A stretch of 63,338 bases of DNA, filler included, from Vannella sp. (Eukaryota): the NCBI GenBank assembly GCA_023345925.1. It is 8 parts of 8 records of this genome, joined end to end, with 100 filler letters (N's around TTAATTAATTAA, not from the genome) between each part and the next. Parts side by side here need not be neighbours in the genome. Positions count along the whole stretch, not along the records: positions 45,250 to 52,764 come from JAJQQN010001372.1; 7 more parts are not named here. The stretch is one strand, 5' to 3'. This document shows positions 531 through 61,257 of the stretch, in pieces. The notes below the pieces were generated by a model. It was not told the DNA's origin and made no database searches. It saw nothing but the letters and a program-made list of their open reading frames with translations. The position numbers and the translations under genes were made by a program. The first letter of the stretch is position 1, and each line of letters opens with the position of its first letter.

Positions 531-3521
<2,991 letters not shown>

Positions 3522-11103: not shown

Positions 11104-11203
11104 NNNNNNNNNNNNNNNNNNNNNNNNNNNNNNNNNNNNNNNNNNNNTTAATTAATTAANNNNNNNNNNNNNNNNNNNNNNNNNNNNNNNNNNNNNNNNN
11201 NNN
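11104..11203. other. Artificial contig linker (N44-TTAATTAATTAA-N44); identical linkers at 20496-20595, 29804-29903, 35451-35550, 45150-45249, 52765-52864, 60973-61072
   Basis: Identical 100-nt spacers carrying a six-frame stop 12-mer. Confidence 0.98.
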
Positions 11204-20464: not shown

Positions 20465-20595
20465 CTCCCAGAGGGAGAGCGAAGGGAAATGCCCANNNNN
20501 NNNNNNNNNNNNNNNNNNNNNNNNNNNNNNNNNNNNNNNTTAATTAATTAANNNNNNNNNNNNNNNNNNNNNNNNNNNNNNNNNNNNNNNNNNNN

Positions 20596-29718: not shown

Positions 29719-30052
29719 GTCACAAGGGCGAAAAAGAATGGACCTGCGGAAAGTAACCTCCCGCTAATTTCTGATTGGCTGGCGGAAAAGCTATTCATTT
29801 ACTNNNNNNNNNNNNNNNNNNNNNNNNNNNNNNNNNNNNNNNNNNNNTTAATTAATTAANNNNNNNNNNNNNNNNNNNNNNNNNNNNNNNNNNNNNNNNN
29901 NNNCACCATCCCCTCAAAACGATGGAAAAGTGGCCTTCTTAAAAACATATAAAATCATCATTTGCATTGGTGCTGGTCGAATTTAGAAGCACTTTTCGGA
30001 GGCCAGCAGGCGTGGGTCAGTGGGAAGGTGAATTCTCTTTGTGCGCGTTTCC

Positions 30053-35381: not shown

Positions 35382-35649
35382 CAACAGAGAAACTGACCTT
35401 CTTATTAAGCTAAAAATAGCAACATTATTCTATTATTACTTGCTCCACCANNNNNNNNNNNNNNNNNNNNNNNNNNNNNNNNNNNNNNNNNNNNTTAATT
35501 AATTAANNNNNNNNNNNNNNNNNNNNNNNNNNNNNNNNNNNNNNNNNNNNACTGCCACCACAGTCGCCCACAAACAAGCCACCAACAACAAAGCGAGAGC
35601 CGCGCGCGCCATCGGCGAGGAAAAAAGTGATTTCTTCTTCATTTTTCTC

Positions 35650-37841: not shown

Positions 37842-40800
37842 ATGAGCAAGTTCTTTGGAGGCTCTGGGCAGGTCTATGGCACAGTATACCACGCTGGCTA
37901 TGAGGCAACATCACTGGATGAAGCAACGTTGGCAGGGGTGAGCGTTCTGAACGTCTGGCAGAAGTAAAGGCTGACTTTTGACTTCTACGTAGGTTGCTGA
38001 GCCTGCTAGTCTGTCTCCTTATGTTGAAACCTATTCTACCGACCACTTACAGTCTAAAGGAGAACTAGAGGGGCTAGCAGTAGCAGTTCCTCTTCTTTGT
38101 GCTCCTCCTGAAGCGCCCCCTTTGCCCAACTTGGCGCTTTCTGTCCCTTCTGCTCGCTCCTTCAAGGCTATCCGACCTATCATCGCCCCTCGATCTCCCA
38201 TTCAACAGGGAGGGGTCAAGGTAAGAGAAATTGCCCGTTCCGTGATGGAACGGAAGACACTCCTCGATCAAGCCTCTGCTCCCACCTCAGAACTGGCCCC
38301 TATCTTCTTTGCATTCACTCCTTTGCCCTGGCCAATGACTGCAAGTGGGGGTAGCACTGAAAGTCTCTTCTTACCGGCAGAGTCCGTTCCATCACAGTTA
38401 GTTTGCTCTCCATCCAGCTTTCCAGCGGGCTTTTCTCCACCACAAAACCTACCTAGTTGTAGTTTAACATACTCTCAATCGTCAGGAACTCCTGACCGAA
38501 GCGAAGGCTTCGAGAACTCCAAATCAATCACTAATCGGGAACTATCTTTCTCAGCTTCCCCAGCTTCCCCAGCTAACCCATCTTCCTATTTGGATGAGGA
38601 TGCATTTACTTGGGGTCCTGAAAAAGCCAGCCGTGAGCAGGAGCTGTCCCCATCGTTGGGAGAGTTTGGACACACCATCGGCCATTCAATGGACGAGGGA
38701 CATGGCTTCTCCATGCAACAATCAGATTTCTCAGCATGCCAGAAGGATGCCACTTTAAATTGCCTTCCGGGAGCTGACCAAGCCTCTGCGTACGGAGATG
38801 ATGCAGAATGGACTTCTCATTCCTTCCCAACAGACCCTTCTCTTCAAAGGGGTTACTCAACAGATGCAGAAGGTGCATTTCTTTTTCATGTCCAACCTTT
38901 ATCGCTATTATCGGAGGGAGTGCCTGAGAGTGTTCTTCAAGCCAACGCTTTTGAGAATGTTGAATTCTCTTTTGGAGAGTCCCCCGTTTCCAACAAAAAC
39001 TGTCCTTATGCGGACACAAGTAGTGCAGGAGTATGGAGTATTAATGAACCGTTGGAAGACTCAAAAGAGTACAAAAAACTGGAAGAGCGATTGGAAAAGG
39101 TCCATGACTTGGCCACCCTCAAACAGATGCTCCTTGACGCTGCCAAAGACGGCGATGAAATTTCTCTCCACTCATTAAACAGAGAGCTGAAACAAGAACA
39201 GCCTCTTCTCAATCGGCATCACCGTGACTGGAACAGCGAGTTTCAGACACTTCTTGAAACACCCGATTCCACCTCCAAGTTCCGCCGGCTGGCCCACCTC
39301 GCCCATGACTTTGTCTATGCAGCAACCACCTACGCGAAAATTATTATCTCTGAACAATGTCTGCCGAACAATCAACGAACAATCCCGCCAATCTCCGTGG
39401 GCGGAGTGGCGGGCGGGCAAAAGTACCTTTGCCAAAACATTATTTTCAAGTTTGCATTGGATGTGGAGATCGCCCCGGGGCTCTACATGTATGGTGGTGC
39501 CTATGTGGATCATGAATCTGCTATGAAAGCAGCTGCTCATGAACTGAAAGGACTCTGTCAGTATTATAGTACTTTGACTCCCCAACTTGCGTACCCTCTC
39601 CTTGCCTACATTGACTACAAAGGCTTCCGAGTCATTGCAATATCTGTATTACCCATCGGCAGAGACTCTCTTTGCTATGGATCTTCTGATTCTGGTGTCC
39701 ACGTTGTCGCGAAAGATTCACAATTGAACTCCTTAATGGAGCGGGCTGCATCAGTACTCAATCTCCAGCCTCACGTTGCTGGAACTGTGGCCGGGCAATG
39801 TGCCCGTCTGAGCAGTGCGGGCGATCTTGAAGCCCATTACGGGACTGACGGCCGATTCTACATCTTAGACTTTGCGAGAGCCTTTCCTCCGGAGTCTCCT
39901 CCCATCCTCAGCTCCGCTCGGCAGCCCAGAGCGGTCTACTACCGACTTCTAAGGCCGGAATTAGTTCGTAGCAACCAAACACCTCTTAGTCCCGATGCTT
40001 TCACCTCTTGGAGTCTTTTAGACCCCCAATTTAGGGAACACAACGGAGCAGTATTTCGGTGTACTTTAAGGCTCCTCAATACGGTTATTCCTGGGTTTGC
40101 AGGCTGCTTAGACGTGGATTGGCAGTCAATGGAAGACAAATTGATTCCCGAAGTCCACCGAGCGGGTATTAACGTGCGGCATCTGGGCCAAATACGATCT
40201 CACTGCGTTGTAGCACCAGCAAGATCTCTACTGTTGGTAGAAATGGTAGTGAGAGTGGTCAAAAATCGATTAAGGGATGAAATGCGGGCAGCCATGCGCC
40301 AGGCTCAAGGACTCTCTCAAGAAGCCTTCAAAGCCAGCGCTATTTCTACCTTCAATCTGGTTTTGGGCAAGGCTAGTCGACCAGCTATCCGCCAATTCTG
40401 GTCAACCATTCACAATCGAGTCACTTCCAAGTTCTTCCACGGAATCACCGGTATTTCCGGTCTCCATCAAAGTGAGACTGCTGAGTCTCTCCAACATCAA
40501 ATGGAAAGTGCGACATGCTTGCGGCGCCTCATGAAGAGACTCTTGGCTCTGTTAGGAGTTCGGATCACCGAGCAAGCAGCCCAGCAACTGGATGACGACC
40601 CCTTTGCGTTTGAATTCGTCGACGCTGATGTTGCTGAGGTCAGCGCTCAACCCCATTTCATGGATATTATAGACTACGCCGAAGCAATGGCTCTTGAGAG
40701 GATGGCACAGGATAAAGCGGCAGAGAGGGAGAAATTGCGTTTGCTTGAACTCAGTGCAAAGAAGTTCGAACGCGCTCTTCACTCGACCCCAGCCAATTAC

Positions 40801-43344
40801 ATGGCAGTCTACAACTGGGGAGAAGTCCTGTTCCAACAAGCCCGACATACAGAACATCTCCCTGCCCGAATATCACTTTTACACGAAGCTGCTGACAAAT
40901 TGAGTTCTGCATTGGCTATCAGTCCAGTCAAATTTGCTCTCCTTCATTTAGGGGAGATCTATCTGACCCTGGCCATGAACGACAAGCCAACTAGTGCCTT
41001 GAATAACTTCATCCTCGCAGCACAGATGTTCTTGCGCGCTGTGCAAGCTGATTCTGCTTTCATTGAACATCTCACAGGCTACTTGGATATGCTATTGAAG
41101 CCCCCTACAAGAGCTTATCAGCTTCGAGGGCTTCTAGAGATGTGCAAACGAATAGCAGTAGCTCTGCCAAATAATGTGGCGATTTTCCGTGCCTGGAGTG
41201 AAGCTATCCTAGATCTAGCACTGAACTTTTCCTCTTTCTCCCAAATACAGCTCACGGATGAAGTCAATAGCTTCGCCCACGCTGCTATTCGTGGTGTACA
41301 AGAGGATGAGGCATGCCTTGCTTTGATTGTGGACGTTATAGATCGAGTGAGCGACTTGGCGTTCCACCATAAGCAACTTTATCTCTTTGTAGCCAGCCTT
41401 TACCCAGCTATTCAACTTGGAACACAAGGGAATACTTCCCATTTGTTTTTGCAGTGGGGTTGGGCCCTTTGGGAGCATGCAAAAACCCTCGATTATCTTC
41501 AATATTCCGGTGCATTGGCCGCAGCAGCCGAAAAGTTCGAAATGGCCGTACAATTTGACGCTGATTGCCTCGATGAGCACCTAAGGAAGGCTGCGGAAGG
41601 GCAAGGAACCTTATTTTCGCAGTGGCTGGACTTACTGGAAGGTGCACCAAACGTTAGAACTCGTTTGTTCTCTTTCCTTCGCACAGATTCGCTCAGACTC
41701 CACTGGTCACTCAGTCTGACCAGCGCTAAAGAGCTGGCTGAGCACGCAGCAGGGGCTCTGACTAGTGTATCTTTTGTTCAAGTGCACCAAGCCAGTGCCA
41801 TTCTTGTGCTCTTGTCTCAGCACTGCCCAAATATCACTTCCATCTCCCTGCAACTTTGTGCTGTGGAGCTTTCCGCTGTCGAGAAGGTTTGCCAGCAACT
41901 CCCAAATCTTGAGTCATTCACTCTAATGGAGTTTCGTGCTACAGCTGACCTTCTTTTACCCCTTTCTACAATGCCCCACATTCACACTATTCGGTTCCAT
42001 GACGTTCGGGTGAAAGAACGAGCCCAATACCTCGCTAGACTCTCTGGGACACTCCAAAACTTGGATTTAAGTTACAGCACCATTACTGACGCTGAGTTCT
42101 CTTCTCTCAAGTGTCTCACTGGACTACGTGAGCTCACTCTTCGCTATTGCAAACACATCCAAAACAGCATTCCTGACTTGGTGCGCCAACTGAAGCATTT
42201 AAAGCACTTGGATGTGTCTGGAGCTTATCGTGATACAGACAGTATTACAGCCGCGGTACTCAAGTCAGGATGCCGTACTCTACGCTACTTGAATGTCTCT
42301 CATTGCAAGAAACTTACAGATAAGGGTCTGACCGATATCGCCGCCATCTTTGGGTGCAATCCGCTTTCCTCCCTTTCTTTCGCTGACTGTTGCCGTATCA
42401 CCGAAGCGGGATTGGCTACCTTGTCTATTGCAGAGGGACTCTCTCAACTGCGTCACTTGGACATGAGCCTCAACAACCACATCCAAGAGAGCAGCATTGC
42501 TGTCCTTTTCCAGCGCCTTGATGCTTCTCGCTTAGAATCCCTGAAGCTTGTGCGCTGTTCTGTCATGAATAGTACGCTCTCTAACCTCACCAGCAGTCAG
42601 AACGGCCCCTTCTCTCTTCGAGAGCTCTCCCTAAAGTCCACAAAAGTGACTGACCTCACTTGGGTGGCCGAGCATTGTCCTAGACTGGAAAAGATCGAAC
42701 TGGGAGAGTGTCCTATCCAAGGGCCCTCTCTCCTAGCCTTGGCCAGACATTGTCCAAACCTGATAGACATTGACTTGACCCGTTGCAACGGGATTACGGA
42801 AGTAGAACTGATAGATTACTTGAAGCTATCTCCCAACTTGGTGCACCTACGACTGAATTACTGTTTACCAGTGGGACTGGACTCTCTCTTGACCATTGCT
42901 GAAGGTTGCCTGGCCCTGGAGACTCTCGAGTTGGAAGACAATCTCCGTATCAATGACGCAACGGTCATGCATTTGCAGAATCTCCCTTCTTTGCGCCGAC
43001 TGAATCTCAGCCGGTGCAACAGGGTCAAGAGCAATTCAATCGTTCGATTGGCTCAGTCGAGCCCTCTTTTGCACCACTTGGATGTGAGTAACACCACTTT
43101 GGTGGACGGAAAGGGCGCTATACAAGTCGCCAAGTATGCGAAACAGCTCCATACTTTCTGTGCTCGCCAGACTCACAATGTCACCCAAGAGACGGTGGAT
43201 TGGATGACGCGTTACCGCCCCAACATCACTTTCGTGGTGGATCGGAGCTCCAGCATGGTCTCAGAACTTCGAGAGCACGTTCAATTCCAATCCAGAGCGC
43301 ATGTTCCTCTCGAGAGTCTTCCATTTAGAAGGAGTAACTGTTGA
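37842..43344 (+). CDS. CLU-domain + TPR + LRR protein
   Basis: CLU motifs (DFVYAATTYAKIIISE, GGVAGGQKY, IDYKGFRVIAISVLPI, GTDGRFYILDFAR, LLRPELV, HRAGINVRHLG), TPR-like helices, a long run of cysteine-containing LRRs; single intron 37938-37992. Confidence 0.85.
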
Positions 43345-44661: not shown

Positions 44662-45249
44662 GACTAGCACATACACTTAATCTCATTAGATTAGTGAACA
44701 ATTCTAATGATAATAGATAAACCAATCAGCCTCTTGAGGGTCAAAAGTCCCTCCCCTTTTCATCAACCCACTCACATCCTCCAAAAACAGTTCCATCTTC
44801 GACCTCCTTCCATGCGGACTAGAAGGGCAGGATTTTTCCGCGGATACTACGTCACTAACATCTCCACCTCAGATTCCGTTTCAGCAATTGTGAGGAGCAC
44901 ACGGATCTGGATACCTATCCAGATCCGTACATGGCTATCTGGGAAAAGACGTGTCGAACTAGCAGAGCACCACTACGATAACATGAAGCGCAAACCAATC
45001 GCATGAAGGCCCAGGGCCTTCACTATCAAATCTCATCTAAAACCCCAATGCAATCACAATGACTCCACTGGCCAGCTGTCTGGGAGAATGATGCAATCTC
45101 ATGAAGATGAAGCCGCCTCCTTCCTCTACTCCGTCACTTGTTGGTTACGNNNNNNNNNNNNNNNNNNNNNNNNNNNNNNNNNNNNNNNNNNNNTTAATTA
45201 ATTAANNNNNNNNNNNNNNNNNNNNNNNNNNNNNNNNNNNNNNNNNNNN

Positions 45250-47348: not shown

Positions 47349-48059
47349 CTAACGGAAAGGACTTGGTAGCAGTTGGAATGGAAGGTGTTTTGGCTGAGGA
47401 AAGGTCCTGTCGTAATGGACCTTTCCTTGTAAGCTGGCCACGAACTCCTGGAAATCACGCTCCTCCGCATCCTCTTCTTTTGTTGGTGCTGGAGAGTGGA
47501 TTGGATCTTCTGGAAGGTTCATGGCGGCTGATGAAAGGTTGCGCAGAGCAGAGGCTCCTCGGAACGTTTCAAGATAGTCAAAGGAAGGTTCTTTTTCTTT
47601 TGTTGATGATTGTTTGAAGATACCCTTTGAGATGCTTGGTTTTTGCACGGATAGGACTGTGCTCATGCGGGAGGGGGGCAATTTCTCTCGCAGGTTCTTA
47701 ACTCTGGCATTGAACGCGTTTGTCTCATTCTTTGACACGAGTGACTTGAAAGGAGCGTTAGGTGAGGCAAGTAGAAGCTTTCTTTTCTGCCTCAGATTGG
47801 CAATTTCGCGAGAGAGAGACGGATCTCTTGGCAGAAGCTCCTCGTAGGCTTCAATCATTGTGTCCAAAGATTTGACTTTCCGATGAGGCCATCGTTCCAC
47901 GCCATTCCTTCGACAGATCTTCTTTAAGACCGTAGCACATATACCCAGAGATACCGCAGCTTCATCGATAGGAAGGTTGTACAATGAAGAGACTTCCTGC
48001 ATCGAGATCACTTCCTCCTGGGCTGAATGGTTGGGACCCCCGATCAGGGTGGCGGGCAT
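47349..48059 (-). CDS. RWP-RK domain transcription factor
   Basis: YNLPIDEAAVSLGICATVLKKICRRNGVERWPHRKVKSL. Confidence 0.92.
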   Translation of the reverse strand: MPATLIGGPNHSAQEEVISMQEVSSLYNLPIDEAAVSLGICATVLKKICRRNGVERWPHRKVKSLDTMIEAYEELLPRDPSLSREIANLRQKRKLLLASPNAPFKSLVSKNETNAFNARVKNLREKLPPSRMSTVLSVQKPSISKGIFKQSSTKEKEPSFDYLETFRGASALRNLSSAAMNLPEDPIHSPAPTKEEDAEERDFQEFVASLQGKVHYDRTFPQPKHLPFQLLPSPFR

Positions 48060-48531
48060 GTTGAGGAAATGAGTGAATGAAGTTGAACGAAGGGTTGATT
48101 TCCAAGCAATTCCGGGAATCCATCAAGAATCAGAAAAAAACAGGAATCCATCAGCATTGGGCCTTTGTCGTCTTGTGTCTCATCTCCACCATCAGGCAGG
48201 CCTTGAATGCCCGCGCATCATGGAAGAGTGGCTCGACTGATTGGATATGGAAGCTCTCACCACACGCGGAACCCGTGTATACTGGACTCATAACCCGTTA
48301 AACCAATAGGGTTGGTGGCCACGTGATCTACAGATCTTTACATGGTGTGGTGAGGTTCCCATATCCAACACAACTGTCACATGCAATGTCTGCTGGACCA
48401 ACTTCCTCCATGGGAGTCTCCTTGGTCTCATACTGATTTATTCTGATGAGTGAACAAGGTAAAACCAACAGGGCATTGAGTTGAGCCGTGCTTGAAAGGC
48501 TCAGGCTGAGGAGATTTAAAGAAATGAATCA

Positions 48532-50133
48532 TTATTGGATGTAGAAGGCAACGGGCTCCTTGAGTTTTTTCCTCTCATTCCACATGACACGCTGCATATC
48601 TGGATCCTTCGCAAGACGAGCGAAAGCAGACATTGATCGTACTGAAGGAGCGGAAATGTATCCGGAATGGAGGGTTCCTCGCTTTCCTCCCGAAACCGAA
48701 GAAGAAGAAGAAGAACAGTCTTCTTGTTGGCGCATATGGCTAGTTGGGATCTCGAAATTGAAAAGGAACTCGCTCAATTCCACCCACGCTTCGTTAACTT
48801 GCTGTTTGGCTGCTGGAGAGTAGGTGACGATCCGATCTGGAACAAAAAGGTTTCCTGTTCTTTCGTAGTTGACCACCAACGCTTGCATTAGCTCCCACAA
48901 GATCATCCTATGAGGACTTTCCAAAAGGCTTCGCTCCAAAGCTGCAACAATAGGCTGCATTTGAATCTCGACAATGTCTTGAACAGTGTTCCCACTTAGA
49001 AGGAGCTTCACTGCGTGCTCTAAGGTAGCTACTGAGCCTCCCACTTGAGAGATAAGCAGAGTAGCATCTTTCTCACTGAGTGCGAGGTCGTTCATGTCAA
49101 GAAGCGCCAAAAGGCGCCTGTGGATGGCATCTTGAGATCTCTCTCCAAAAGAGACTTTTCTCACGTCGGGATCAGTCCTAGCGTCCATGTAAGGCTCCAA
49201 CCTAGCTAACAGAGATGGATCATTGGATTGGATGAGAACTTGGCACCAATCCCTCTCCAGTGACATCTCCCGAAGCCACTGAAGGAAGCGCCGCATCTCT
49301 GCTTGCTCTTGTACCTTCTCGATAGGATCAGAGATCGCATCAATGTAGTCTAATAGAGACTCAAAGTTGCTGATCCATACAAACTGCCTCGCACCTGGTC
49401 CTCTTTGCTCGATAAGCGTCGTCATCTCTTCCAAGACATCTACGAACTCTCCTCCTGCTGGGTTCGCTCGATTGCTAGTTACTTGAGCGAGACTTTCTGA
49501 TAGAAGTCTTTGTAGGCCTCCTTTGTGCACTTTCTCATCAGCGCCAGGTGCGCTGGCAGCAAAAAGGGGCGATCGATAGGAATTCGGTTGGATCGAGAAC
49601 TTGATTGCGCTGCTCTCGGCCAAGTAGCTGTTGACAAGGTTATGGCTGTTGAACTCTTTGGGGCCCATGGCTATCGCAAACGTGCCAGCATGCGAGAAGA
49701 CGGCCTCAAGCTCCATCCCTTCATTTAAGAGGGACGGAAATCTGTTGTTGATGACCAGAGGGACAACTGGGGAGGCAATTAACATCTCATCTTCTCCTTT
49801 TGACTCTTCTAGATGCTCAGACTGCTCTTTGGGTGCCACAACAAGGAGGGAGACAGGGTTGGGTTTGCCCAGAGCGGTGTACACCAAAGCCGCAAGTCCT
49901 CCACATATCAAACCAATCCCAATAGGAAACAGCAGCTTCTGCGGAGGGGCTGTGCTGGATCGAGGTGGTAGAGGCGGAGGAATAGGAGAGCTGGAAGAAG
50001 GCAATGTGGGGGGAGGAGAGTAACCCATCCTCCCTTCCACATTTGGCACAGTCCGACGAGCCCTTGTTGTCTCAACGAACGCCATGTTTCTTCCCCTGGC
50101 TGCCACATGGGAGAAGGTCCTCACCCGAAGCAT
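48532..50133 (-). CDS. Predicted mitochondrial membrane protein with a degenerate P-loop ATPase-like domain
   Basis: Presequence-like MLRVRTFSHVAAR, one TM helix, degenerate Walker A (AMGPKEFNS) and Walker B (VWISNFE); intronless. Confidence 0.45.
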   Translation of the reverse strand: MLRVRTFSHVAARGRNMAFVETTRARRTVPNVEGRMGYSPPPTLPSSSSPIPPPLPPRSSTAPPQKLLFPIGIGLICGGLAALVYTALGKPNPVSLLVVAPKEQSEHLEESKGEDEMLIASPVVPLVINNRFPSLLNEGMELEAVFSHAGTFAIAMGPKEFNSHNLVNSYLAESSAIKFSIQPNSYRSPLFAASAPGADEKVHKGGLQRLLSESLAQVTSNRANPAGGEFVDVLEEMTTLIEQRGPGARQFVWISNFESLLDYIDAISDPIEKVQEQAEMRRFLQWLREMSLERDWCQVLIQSNDPSLLARLEPYMDARTDPDVRKVSFGERSQDAIHRRLLALLDMNDLALSEKDATLLISQVGGSVATLEHAVKLLLSGNTVQDIVEIQMQPIVAALERSLLESPHRMILWELMQALVVNYERTGNLFVPDRIVTYSPAAKQQVNEAWVELSEFLFNFEIPTSHMRQQEDCSSSSSSVSGGKRGTLHSGYISAPSVRSMSAFARLAKDPDMQRVMWNERKKLKEPVAFYIQ

Positions 50134-50293
50134 GACCCAAACAAATGAATTTTCCCGCCATTTTCCAAATGTGCTGACCTTCTTTGGAAGTGAATGGGAG
50201 GATTCATCTGGCACTTGAAAAGACGAAAATCATGTCTAAAGCGCTCCTTCTTGAAACCAGCTCGAAAGGACATTCTTTGGTGACCCTTCATTG

Positions 50294-52748
50294 ATGGCCC
50301 AAGTCGAGTGGGACGGCGGTACCGGCTGGAAGTTGCCAGTGCTGCAGGCTATCTTGGATGAGGACCCCGAGAAGCTCAACCAGGTGAGCTCCTTTCCACA
50401 GTCCAGGAGGAAATCAAACCAAAGCGAAACGGCTCTTTTCTAGTATGTGAGTGAACGGAAGCACTTTTGGAGAGCTTCTCACTGTAAACACTTTGTTACT
50501 AGCATGTTAGTGTCTTTTCTACTTGTCAGACGGGGCTCAGTTGCAGGGAGGATGACATCTGAACGTTCGGACCTTCCTTTAGCAAGTAAGTGAAAGGAAA
50601 CCTTCTTTGAGCTCACAGCCATTACAGGAAGTAAGCGAACCCGTTCTCCTTGATAAGACAATGCATGGTCTCATCAAAAGGGCCTCTCGTTCAGTTTGTA
50701 AGGGAATCTCCAATCTTTTGGTGCGATGCTGACTCTTTTCTCGCAGAAGGTAAGCAGGAGGACTTATGATGCCTGATACAGTCTAGCATACTAACAAGGA
50801 CAACATTGGCCGTTAGTTTGGAGTGCGTTGCTGGGGAAGAAGACACTCCTGCAGGAGAACTGACAGTTATTTAGAGTGTAAGTTGCTCGCTACATTCAGG
50901 AAGAGGTGGAAGGCGGACATTCTTCTCCAAACCCTATATTTGGGAGAGCCCTCACCAGACTGCTTTAGAGTGTGAGTGGCCGATCGCGGAAAAGGATGAA
51001 GCATCACTTACTGAAGACGCAATGAAGTCTGTGAGTAGTTTCGCTGTTTGAAGAGGATTTAATCGTTGCGGTCAAAGAGAGTAAGAGGTCCAAGCTGTGG
51101 GATCATCAGAGGCCCTCATCTAATCTGAATTCAGCATGTAGGTTTTGCCCATCCGGAAACGTGCACGATACCAACCAAGTTCATTTACAGTGGGTAAGTC
51201 ATTCTCTAAAGTGAAGAAGATGCTCAACTCTCGAAGACATTCCTTGGATTGGCAGCTGCCACAGGGAACGCTGAATTCGTTAGATATTTGCTTTCTCGAC
51301 GAACCATCAACATTCATGAGGGAGTCCGTTCTTTTTTGGAGAAGGAATACACTCTGACTTGGGTCATTCTAATTTTTAGTGTGTGAGTTATGTTGCAACA
51401 ACTTTGGGTGAATGCAATACTTACCGGCCGCTTTTAGCAAGTAAGAAACAAATCCTGAGAGATTCCGTGGAGCACAGGCCTTACCAGGGGACCATTTAGG
51501 CTGTAAGTGATTATTAGAGTCATCTGGAAAGGAGAGGAATTAACTGGATCGCAAAGGTTGTAAGAAGGGATCCTCTCGAGATGAATCAGGCCTCAACGTT
51601 TGGGATTGATTAGCTTGTAAGTATTTGATTTCAGCAAGACCCCTCTGACCATGCCCTTCAGAGGGTGGGTAAATCATTTGGTGAACTTTGGGATCTTACT
51701 CACGAATGGCGTGGTAATCAGGATGTGAGTTCTTAAATTTTAAAAAGACTTAGCAGGGGCTAACAGCCACAATCACTGTAGGTGGTAAGTGAATGGAGGG
51801 GAGGCGCGAGTGCCAAGATATCAGAGCAAAGTAATCTCACTTCATTGGACTTGCAGGGAGTAAGTGGTTCTAAAGATGCAATGTGAAAATGTGCCTAATC
51901 AGCATCTCCCAGTCCGTAAGTTTCGAGGAAGGTGGATTTGAAGCTCTGCTGATTTATTCCTTCTGTAGGAGGTAAGGGGCACCTTATAACTTTGAATCAC
52001 TCCGCCAACGTCCTCAATTAGGCTGTACGTAAACCAAATACCAACCGAATGATCTGAATGGAATGGGAAATAGCTGGCATTTGACTTGAGCGCGAACCTC
52101 CAGATCAGGACGATGCTCAAAAATGCGGGTGGTAGGCCTCGTTTCTACCCACCCCGTGACTATGATTATTGCTTCAAGATCAAGATCGTTGGGGACAGCG
52201 GAACTGGCAAATCCTGTTTGATTCGTCGATTTGTGGATGATTACTTCAATTGGGAATATTTCCAAATTGATCAGGGCTTTCTCAGTAAGACTATCGTAGT
52301 TGGAGGTAAGTCCATTAAGCTTCAGATTTGGGATCACAAAGAAGAGCGCTTTCGCCTCGGCCCAAGCCCCTACAGCGGGGCACATGCAGTCATCCTTTTG
52401 TACGATGTTACAGATCCTGCTTCCTTTGCGAATCTCAAGCAGTGGCTCTTTGATGTTGAGAGAAACGCCAGTGAGAATGTGACCAAGCTGATCGTTGGAA
52501 ACAAGTGCGACCTGACCATTAAAAAGGTCATCCACTTGGACACTGCAAAGCAATTCGCTGCAGAGCGTGAGATTCCTTTCTTTGAAATCTCTGCCAGGAC
52601 TTCAGTCTATGTCGAGGAAGCATTCACTTTTCTGGTCACCAAGATTCTTGAGAGACTGACTGTACCAAACCAAATCAATCAGATTGATAGCCCTTTCAGG
52701 CTTCAAGTTGAGGGCAAGAAGCGCAAGAGCAAGTGCAAGTTACAGTAG
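50294..52748 (+). CDS. Ankyrin-repeat + Rab1-like GTPase-domain protein encoded by 28 exons, 25 of them microexons (309 aa if all are included)
   Basis: Exon 50294-50383 MAQVEWDGGTGWKLPVLQAILDEDPEKLNQ; microexons YHQEFK(FG)SSSRHW; exon 51237-51323 TFLGLAAATGNAEFVRYLLSRRTINIHEG (ankyrin); microexons CQAVLRDVGSEA; exon 52074-52748 LAFDLSANLQIRTML + Rab domain + CKLQ; all 27 introns GT-AG and phase 0. Confidence 0.88.
50384..51236 (+). other. Microexon array 1 (13 microexons, 14 introns)
   Basis: AG|exon|GT at 50444 TAT, 50503 CAT, 50583 CAA, 50628 GAA, 50695 TTT, 50747 AAG, 50817 TTTGGA, 50875 AGT, 50969 AGT, 51028 TCT, 51078 AGA, 51135 CAT, 51191 TGG. Confidence 0.88.
51324..52073 (+). other. 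Microexon array 2 (12 single-codon exons, 13 introns)
   Basis: AG|exon|GT at 51380 TGT, 51438 CAA, 51500 GCT, 51557 GTT, 51614 CTT, 51662 AGG, 51722 GAT, 51782 GTG, 51857 GGA, 51913 TCC, 51969 GAG, 52022 GCT. Confidence 0.9.
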
Positions 52749-53251
52749 ACGAGGGTTGATCCCANNNNNNNNNNNNNNNNNNNNNNNNNNNNNNNNNNNN
52801 NNNNNNNNTTAATTAATTAANNNNNNNNNNNNNNNNNNNNNNNNNNNNNNNNNNNNNNNNNNNNCTCGTGACTTCTCTCTAACTCCTCCTCAAGTCTCTC
52901 TGACGTGTTGAATATCCACTGCAGTGACCTGAAGACGGTGGATGGGGGCAATGCAACACGTATCTGGACTGTAACAAAGAGCTTGTATTCCATCAGGGAC
53001 GAATCCCATTTCAGAAGAAACGTACTGCTCTCGAATGGGAGAACGATGAGAGAATTCTCTGCCGCGCTAAACTGCGAATCCAGAAGGACGCCTTCCTTTA
53101 TGACAACACCTGGGTGTCCAACTGTCTTCTCAGGTTGCCAGGTTCCACGGAGAAAAGTCCACAAATCGCAATGAGAGTGAAAGAGTTCAAAATTTTCCTG
53201 GAATTACAAAAACTTACTCACGGATAGTTTACTCTTTCTTTGCCCCCAGGG

Positions 53252-60969: not shown

Positions 60970-61257
60970 GTTNNNNNNNNNNNNNNNNNNNNNNNNNNNN
61001 NNNNNNNNNNNNNNNNTTAATTAATTAANNNNNNNNNNNNNNNNNNNNNNNNNNNNNNNNNNNNNNNNNNNNAAATTAATGAACCCTCACTTCCCCTCGC
61101 CAACCCAATTCCCGTTTTCCAAAAAGATTCTCATTTTCGGTTCCCGGAAATAAATTCGAGGAAAAAAATTGGAAATATGTGGGAATCAATTCAAACGAAT
61201 CCCCAGTTCGTTTGTGAACAAAAGGGAACACAATTTGAGCTTGCAAGTTTAACTAGG

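What the first reader, a model, noticed from the sequence alone, without database searches (positions are those of the whole stretch)
50294..52748. Ankyrin-Rab gene with 25 microexons (24 single-codon): candidate splicing-based hypervariable receptor
Seen: about 1.7 kb with no credible ORF carries AG|NNN|GT (donors mostly GTRAG) roughly every 45-95 nt. This gives 24 exons of exactly 3 nt and one of 6 nt, separated by 27 GT-AG introns of 42-91 nt, many with branch-point-like motifs (CTAAC/CTGAC/CTCAC) like introns elsewhere in the window. All introns are phase 0, no microexon is a stop codon, and the three large exons join in frame into ankyrin repeats plus a Rab domain. Established: ankyrin inter-repeat/beta-hairpin loops contribute to the ligand-binding surface (positions randomised in DARPins), and splicing-generated diversity is known from Dscam and schistosome micro-exon genes, but with larger exons. 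Inference: any subset of codon-exons keeps the frame, so skipping could vary loop length and sequence one residue at a time (theoretical ceiling 2^25, about 3e7 splice patterns). That would be an antibody-like repertoire in a unicellular eukaryote. I know of no described gene with runs of consecutive one-codon exons like this.
Basis: partly seen in the sequence, partly recalled or inferred. Interest (0 to 1): 0.97.

Follow-up and report, generated by a model that had tools for sequence, protein, structure and literature searches.

The report
Amoeba gene with one-codon exons
A gene from what is likely an amoeba has the splice signals of 25 tiny exons, 24 of them one codon long, at two loops of a likely ankyrin binding module fused to a Rab1-like protein; skipping some of them would likely vary those loops, as reported for truffle immune receptors, but no RNA was available to test this.

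Summary
Window 50384-52073 has 20 AG-NNN-GT(A/G)AG sites against 0.38 expected, and 20 of its 21 strong donors lie exactly 3 nt after an AG. The 27 introns match the organism's other introns in length and donors, are enriched for branch-point motifs, and are unrelated to each other. The model gives a 309-aa protein: a small ankyrin module plus a Rab1-derived domain that has lost the switch I Thr and the DxxGQ motif and ends in a CaaX-like box. Seven homologous protein clusters share the last exon and have highly variable switch regions. The design is not without precedent: Tuber melanosporum NACHT-ankyrin genes diversify by alternative splicing of dozens of 3-bp exons, and Drosophila sowah has annotated 3-nt exons. 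New here are the lineage (probably a vannellid-related amoeba) and the architecture. Skipping is unproven: no RNA run was listed and no homologous DNA was found. Cluster 1 fits an ankyrin best when nearly all exons are kept. My odds: 55% functional partial skipping, 30% constitutive. Verdict: new variant of a known kind.

The parts
50294..50383 (+). Exon 1 (30 codons, from ATG); weak ankyrin N-cap-like segment that seems to end inside helix 2
   Evidence: In-frame stop upstream of the ATG. No Pfam or PDB hit. Ankyrin PSSM register p=0.06 for residues 9-30.
50384..51236 (+). Cluster 1: 14 introns and 13 micro-exons at 50444 (Tyr), 50503 (His), 50583 (Gln), 50628 (Glu), 50695 (Phe), 50747 (Lys), 50817-50822 (two codons), 50875 (Ser), 50969 (Ser), 51028 (Ser), 51078 (Arg), 51135 (His), 51191 (Trp); start positions given, each 3 nt unless stated
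51237..51323 (+). Exon 15 (29 codons): one ankyrin repeat core starting at consensus position 4
   Evidence: Pfam Ank E=0.017, below the curated cut-off, residues 5-26 on profile 8-28. 192 PDB sequences at E<=10, the 60 shown almost all ankyrin or DARPin proteins. PSSM shuffle p=0.0025.
51324..52073 (+). Cluster 2: 13 introns and 12 three-base micro-exons at 51380 (Cys), 51438 (Gln), 51500 (Ala), 51557 (Val), 51614 (Leu), 51662 (Arg), 51722 (Asp), 51782 (Val), 51857 (Gly), 51913 (Ser), 51969 (Glu), 52022 (Ala); these fall at the ankyrin beta-hairpin position
52074..52166 (+). Start of last exon: short helical segment (probable ankyrin C-cap) and a linker conserved in the homologues
   Evidence: Helix at residues 9-17 in the model, pLDDT about 70. 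Conserved in homologues. Ankyrin match not significant alone (p=0.77).
52167..52661 (+). Rab1-derived G domain: P-loop, NKCD and G5 kept; switch I Thr and DxxGQ lost
   Evidence: Pfam Ras E=2e-41. Best PDB sequence hit Rab-1A, E=1e-52. Fold match to Rab1A, target TM 0.90. Motif comparison.
52662..52748 (+). C-terminal tail with a basic patch and a single-Cys C-x-x-Q end, then the stop codon
   Evidence: Sequence. All 7 homologue clusters end in C-x-x-Q. Reading it as a farnesylation box is from my own knowledge.

Best explanation
This is an ankyrin-Rab1-like gene whose two loop-coding regions carry the splice signals of 25 frame-preserving micro-exons, and these are likely spliced with partial, variable skipping, so that one gene would make many versions of a small binding surface. 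Shown: the splice-signal array, an ankyrin repeat between the clusters, the Rab1 fold without its catalytic switch motifs, and variable switch regions across homologues. Inferred: (1) each unit is a real intron, removed one at a time, because a donor and an acceptor 3 nt apart are unlikely to be engaged together; (2) when a donor pairs with a later acceptor one or more codons drop out with no frameshift; (3) cluster 2 (hairpin) tolerates wide variation, while cluster 1 is mostly kept; (4) the C-x-x-Q tail anchors the protein to the cytosolic face of a membrane, and the GTPase-like domain acts as a scaffold or decoy, not as a normal Rab switch. The ligand is unknown; an intracellular non-self sensor or decoy is my best guess.
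For: Splice signals are kept at all 25 units although the introns share no detectable similarity (best pair score 19, against 18-24 in 20 shuffled sets; no tandem array). This points to selection on each unit. All 25 exon lengths are multiples of 3. The array lies only at two loop positions, while the 675-nt last exon has no intron. Ankyrin hairpins are enriched in binding contacts and in insertions (PMC4687027, passages). The same design in the same domain is reported as alternatively spliced in Tuber. In cluster 2, three to four codons restore the canonical 33-residue spacing; all twelve give 41 residues and the lowest length-class score (-5.0 against +3 to +5 for the best 2-5 codon subsets). 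Across 9 family rows the switch I and II regions are 22% and 31% identical, against 84% and 95% in 51 ordinary Rab rows, while the G4 and G5 regions are as conserved as in those rows.
Against: No transcript was seen. Single skips need introns of 99-150 nt, but 8 reference introns elsewhere in the window are 46-55 nt, and short-intron genomes skip exons rarely (own knowledge). Cluster 1 scores best with 13-14 residues included. A 41-residue repeat lies within the natural range of 24-48. The cluster 2 score differences are a few bits, come from a 24-repeat PSSM, and the best subsets are maxima of many tries. Drosophila sowah has 3-nt exons, which earlier notes describe as an old fixed layout in ankyrin loops, so such exons need not imply a repertoire. 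A tandem duplication of intron-plus-codon units would give uniform phase 0 without any skipping.
Confidence: 0.55

Rival explanations
1. Constitutive micro-exons: all 25 are normally included, giving one 309-aa protein with fixed loops. The array arose by old duplication of an intron-plus-codon unit and is kept because each codon is needed; skipping is only noise.
For: Cluster 1 fully included gives 14 residues, close to the roughly 16 that a canonical repeat needs, and has the best mean score. Every intron has a modal length and 21 of 27 have strong donors. The 41-residue second repeat is in the natural range. Fly sowah has annotated 3-, 3-, 6- and 12-nt exons.
Against: It leaves unexplained why 27 introns are kept in 255 nt of coding sequence in a genome with long intron-free ORFs. 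The only reported system on this scale (Tuber) is alternatively spliced.
Confidence: 0.3
2. Mutually exclusive choice (Dscam-like): one or very few codons are chosen per cluster.
For: Neighbouring splice sites are extremely close. One to four codons suffice for the cluster 2 hairpin.
Against: Each intron is 42 nt or longer with its own donor, acceptor and usually a branch motif, so neighbours need not exclude each other. One codon in cluster 1 would cut the first cap-like repeat about 15 residues short.
Confidence: 0.06
3. The array is not productively spliced: a decayed or regulatory region, with the Rab-like exon expressed alone or the gene controlled by intron retention.
For: No transcript was seen. 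None of the 7 homologue clusters has an upstream ankyrin in the same called ORF. Exon 1 and the C-cap are weak ankyrin matches.
Against: Splice signals are intact at 25 of 25 units despite fully diverged introns. The large exons have no stops. In two homologue clusters the residue just before the aligned exon start is Lys or Gln, which an AG-ending codon can encode, as expected for the same intron boundary (DNA not seen).
Confidence: 0.09

Closest known systems
Tuber melanosporum nank (NACHT-ankyrin NLR) genes, Iotti et al. 2012, PMID 22289772 (not held; seen only through passages of PMC4986451, PMC13449251 and PMC9815663)
   Same: Tens of 3-bp, codon-sized exons in a gene with an ankyrin recognition domain; proposed to diversify that domain.
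   Different: Here: probably an amoeba, about one full ankyrin repeat with caps, a C-terminal Rab1-derived domain and no NACHT domain. Alternative splicing is reported in Tuber and untested here. I could not see where the Tuber exons sit within the repeats.
Drosophila sowah micro-exons (PMC8042270, supplementary Table 4 rows)
   Same: Annotated 3-nt exons close together (12, 3, 3, 6 nt). Earlier unchecked notes place them in ankyrin loops.
   Different: Two 3-nt exons, not 24, with kilobase spacing between them, not about 55 nt. No Rab domain is described in those notes. Homology to this gene was not tested.
Schistosoma micro-exon genes, MEGs (PMC8293314, passages)
   Same: Short symmetric exons whose removal keeps the frame.
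   Different: MEGs are made mainly of exons up to 36 bp and encode host-exposed proteins. Here micro-exons give 78 of 930 coding bases, are one codon long, and sit in a folded, probably cytosolic protein.
Rab1/Ypt1 GTPases
   Same: Fold, P-loop, NKCD and G5; about 50% identity to Rab1A over the G domain.
   Different: Switch I Thr and DxxGQ are lost, switch regions vary across the family, the tail has a single-Cys C-x-x-Q end, and an ankyrin module is fused in front.

Membership tests
Tuber nank-type codon-micro-exon system | Tens of 3-bp exons | tested here: met
   24 three-base exon units predicted from splice signals
Tuber nank-type codon-micro-exon system | Micro-exons associated with an ankyrin domain | tested here: met
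   They flank an ankyrin repeat on both sides
Tuber nank-type codon-micro-exon system | Alternative splicing shown in transcripts | not testable with these tools
   No RNA run could be examined for this stretch
Tuber nank-type codon-micro-exon system | NACHT (NLR) architecture | tested here: not met
   The nucleotide-binding domain is Ras/Rab (E=2e-41); the NACHT hit is only the P-loop at E=0.15
Tuber nank-type codon-micro-exon system | Expanded paralogous family | tested here: inconclusive
   7 homologue clusters from unnamed records; no genome is held, so copy number is unknown
Ankyrin repeat protein | Helix-loop-helix repeat matching the consensus | tested here: met
   Middle exon only: Pfam E=0.017 (sub-threshold), PDB ankyrin hits, PSSM p=0.0025
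Ankyrin repeat protein | Two or more stacked repeats | tested here: inconclusive
   Exon 1 p=0.06, start of last exon p=0.77; no PDB hits; spliced protein not folded
Rab1 GTPase | Rab fold with G1, G4, G5 | tested here: met
Rab1 GTPase | Switch I Thr and switch II DxxGQ | tested here: not met
   Both replaced in the window protein; DxxGQ is absent from all 9 family rows
Rab1 GTPase | C-terminal double-cysteine motif | tested here: not met
   Single Cys, C-x-x-Q, in all 9 family rows; the three Rab rows printed beside them end in CC
Schistosome MEG | Coding sequence mainly from short symmetric exons | tested here: not met
   78 of 930 coding bases
Schistosome MEG | Secreted or host-exposed product | not tested
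   No signal-peptide predictor was run; the N-terminus is not hydrophobic by eye
Dscam-type mutually exclusive cluster | Duplicated alternative exons with docking/selector pairing | tested here: inconclusive
   No repeated intron element or long inverted repeat; RNA pairing not modelled
SOWAH | Homology to animal SOWAH ankyrin proteins | not tested
   No SOWAH sequence was fetched

The most novel reading that the evidence does not exclude
A free-living amoeba builds a somatic, codon-by-codon splice repertoire of a membrane-anchored ankyrin binder fused to a Rab1 decoy whose switch surface also diversifies between gene copies: an intracellular non-self recognition system that converged on the truffle NLR mechanism in an unrelated eukaryotic supergroup.
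Probability: 0.25. Interest if true: 0.92.

Novelty: new variant of a known kind. Interest (0 to 1): 0.72.

Why it matters
If skipping is real, codon-level splice diversification of ankyrin loops, which my searches found reported only for one truffle gene family, arose again in a distant unicellular lineage, on a new protein architecture. That would make it a recurrent way to build recognition diversity without DNA rearrangement. Even if constitutive, 24 one-codon exons between 42-91 nt introns are a compact test case (one 1.8-kb locus, a cDNA amplicon under 300 nt) for how the spliceosome handles sites 3 nt apart. Gene callers miss such genes: every homologue found is annotated as a plain Rab1-like fragment or is unnamed.

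Tried and rejected
No whole genome is held, so paralogues were not counted. The sequencing-run search listed no RNA holder; this is no evidence either way. The viral scan gave one Rab-like locus without an array; the prokaryote scan gave two weak hits, not examined further. A three-unit DNA pattern gave 31 viral loci; the 14 inspected were repeats or chance matches. No full-length spliced homologue was found among 312 and 7996 scored candidates (best 120 listed each) or the best 150; these searches are crowded by ordinary Rabs, so this is weak. An automatic intron finder gave 54 calls against 28-51 for fake donors, so it was rejected, and with it my idea that the micro-exon donors are unusually weak at the -1 base. 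A satellite or recent tandem repeat was rejected. A hidden ORF was rejected. The first fold (9 sequences) was unusable, pLDDT 47; the second (92 sequences) gave 86. Atlas searches added nothing. An ankyrin profile could not be built from the session's first data; one was then built from 24 repeats. Paper searches: searches gave 0 papers; one unrelated paper each; some searches gave the Tuber citations.

Full report
Observation. The pattern is in the sequence and far beyond chance. In 50384-52073 there are 20 AG-N3-GT(A/G)AG sites, against a mean of 0.38 and a maximum of 3 in 2000 dinucleotide shuffles. Of 21 GTRAG donors, 20 have an AG exactly 3 nt upstream, and the rest of the window shows no such preference. 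With weaker donors included, the region parses completely into 13 plus 12 micro-exons (24 of 3 nt, one of 6 nt) and 27 GT-AG introns of 42-91 nt. All 21 strong donors are used; 7 weaker donor-like sites are not. Branch-point-like motifs occur in 18 of 27 introns against 3.7 in shuffles. No frame stays open for more than 82 codons.

Are they real introns? Eight introns placed by eye in other genes of the window, where removal restores a plausible reading frame, are 46-55 nt long with GTAAG, GTACG, GTGAG or GTACC donors. The array's introns have a median of 54 nt and 21 of 27 GTAAG/GTGAG donors. Four of the 27 end in AAG, which none of the eight does. The 27 introns are no more alike than shuffled sequence and form no tandem array. 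Signals kept at every unit while the rest has diverged are best explained by selection for splicing at each unit. This is inference; no transcript was seen.

The protein. With all exons the gene encodes 309 residues. The middle large exon is an ankyrin repeat starting at consensus position 4 (PSSM shuffle p=0.0025). Exon 1 (p=0.06) and the first 20 residues of the last exon (p=0.77; a predicted helix) are only cap-like. The rest is a Rab1-like domain that keeps the P-loop, NKCD and G5 but has lost the switch I Thr and the DxxGQ motif. It ends in a basic patch and C-x-x-Q, which I read from my own knowledge as a farnesylation box.

Homologues. Seven protein clusters from unnamed records share the last exon's linker: P0001, P0002, P0003, P0004, P0202, P0226 and P0273. 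All called ORFs begin in or just before the cap-like segment, the longest member is 258 residues, and none has an upstream ankyrin. In P0551 and P0002 the residue just before the aligned exon start is Lys or Gln, which an AG-ending codon can encode. This hints at the same intron boundary, but I could not see their DNA. Across 9 family rows (two from one cluster) switch I and II are 22% and 31% identical, against 84% and 95% in 51 ordinary Rab rows; the G4 and G5 regions are 73% and 58% against 75% and 58%. So the usual effector-binding face has lost constraint or is diversifying, while the core is kept.

Organism. The window is a string of contigs joined by N runs; the gene's contig is 45250-52764. 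A ribosomal protein L5 on another contig is 80-86% identical to unnamed environmental proteins and about 65% to a cluster with a member labelled Vannella by its source. In a quick tree of 70 rows it falls in a 37-row group with that member (SH-aLRT 96), apart from Balamuthia, fungi and animals (the careful search did not finish, and named amoebae were few). A vannellid-related amoeba is likely, if the contigs belong to one organism.

Mechanism. Any subset of micro-exons keeps the frame; the distinct peptides number 4092 and 3964 for the two clusters, 1.6e7 together. The fold probably allows far fewer. Cluster 2 lies at the hairpin: three to four codons give the canonical 33-residue spacing, all twelve give 41 and the lowest class score, and the best subsets contain the Asp and Gly codons. 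These differences are a few bits and the maxima come from many tries; only a sample of the larger subsets was scored. Natural repeats span 24-48 residues, with insertions mostly at hairpins and binding contacts enriched there (PMC4687027, passages). Cluster 1 points the other way: mean fit is best with 13-14 residues. Single skips need 99-150 nt introns, about twice the modal length, though the gene's own 91-nt intron is close. I put functional partial skipping at 0.55 and constitutive inclusion at 0.30. The role is a guess: a membrane-anchored cytosolic binder, perhaps a decoy, since Rab1 is bound by several bacterial effectors (PDB titles) and amoebae host such bacteria (own knowledge).

Known systems. 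[quoted passage not shown] The primary paper is not held. Drosophila sowah has FlyBase-annotated exons of 12, 3, 3 and 6 nt (PMC8042270, supplementary Table 4 rows; the main-text passages do not name it). Schistosome MEGs use symmetric exons up to 36 bp (PMC8293314, passages). This gene looks built like the Tuber system but is not a member of it: it has no NACHT domain. It is Rab1-derived but fails two Rab1 features. My searches found no paper on such arrays in amoebae or protists; most subscription journals are not searched. Earlier notes of this scan report similar arrays in other protist genes. They are unchecked, none reports RNA support, and they suggest the layout is rarer in annotation than in nature.

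Verdict. A real and extreme gene structure, a new variant of a known kind, in a new lineage and on a new architecture. The diversification claim is plausible and untested. Interest 0.72.

Noticed in passing
window 11104-11203, 20496-20595, 29804-29903, 35451-35550, 45150-45249, 52765-52864, 60973-61072: Seven joints of 44 N, a 12-base spacer and 44 N: the window is concatenated contigs, so gene order across joints means nothing.
   Followed up: yes
window 52167-52745 and homologues P0001-P0004, P0202, P0226, P0273: A family of Rab1-derived proteins with degenerate, highly variable switch regions and a C-x-x-Q tail; some members also have altered P-loops. Those with a name are called plain Rab-1A.
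   Followed up: partly
window 48532-50229 (minus): Divergent neighbour about 200 bp upstream: a long ORF with a Pro/Ser-rich start and a hydrophobic segment, no convincing Pfam family.
   Followed up: no
window 47349-48122 (minus): RWP-RK domain protein (E=4e-22) on the same contig.
   Followed up: no
window 37993-43344 (minus): Uninterrupted 1783-codon ORF that looks by eye like a Clu-type domain followed by TPR-like and leucine-rich repeats (family names recalled, not tested).
   Followed up: no
window 2214-3521: ORF with an ArfGAP-like start (recalled) and two to three ordinary ankyrin repeats in one exon, with no micro-exon array; used as an ankyrin seed.
   Followed up: partly
P0272: A 1634-residue unnamed protein that seems to hold several tandem Rab-like domains.
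   Followed up: no
L049:1013-1615: Rab-like gene in a giant-virus bin contig, 38% identical to the last exon, with no micro-exon array.
   Followed up: partly
window 50444-52024: Third bases of the last codon of the 25 micro-exons are skewed by hand count: 13 T, 6 A, 5 G, 1 C. Loss of C before the donor G could explain it; not tested.
   Followed up: no
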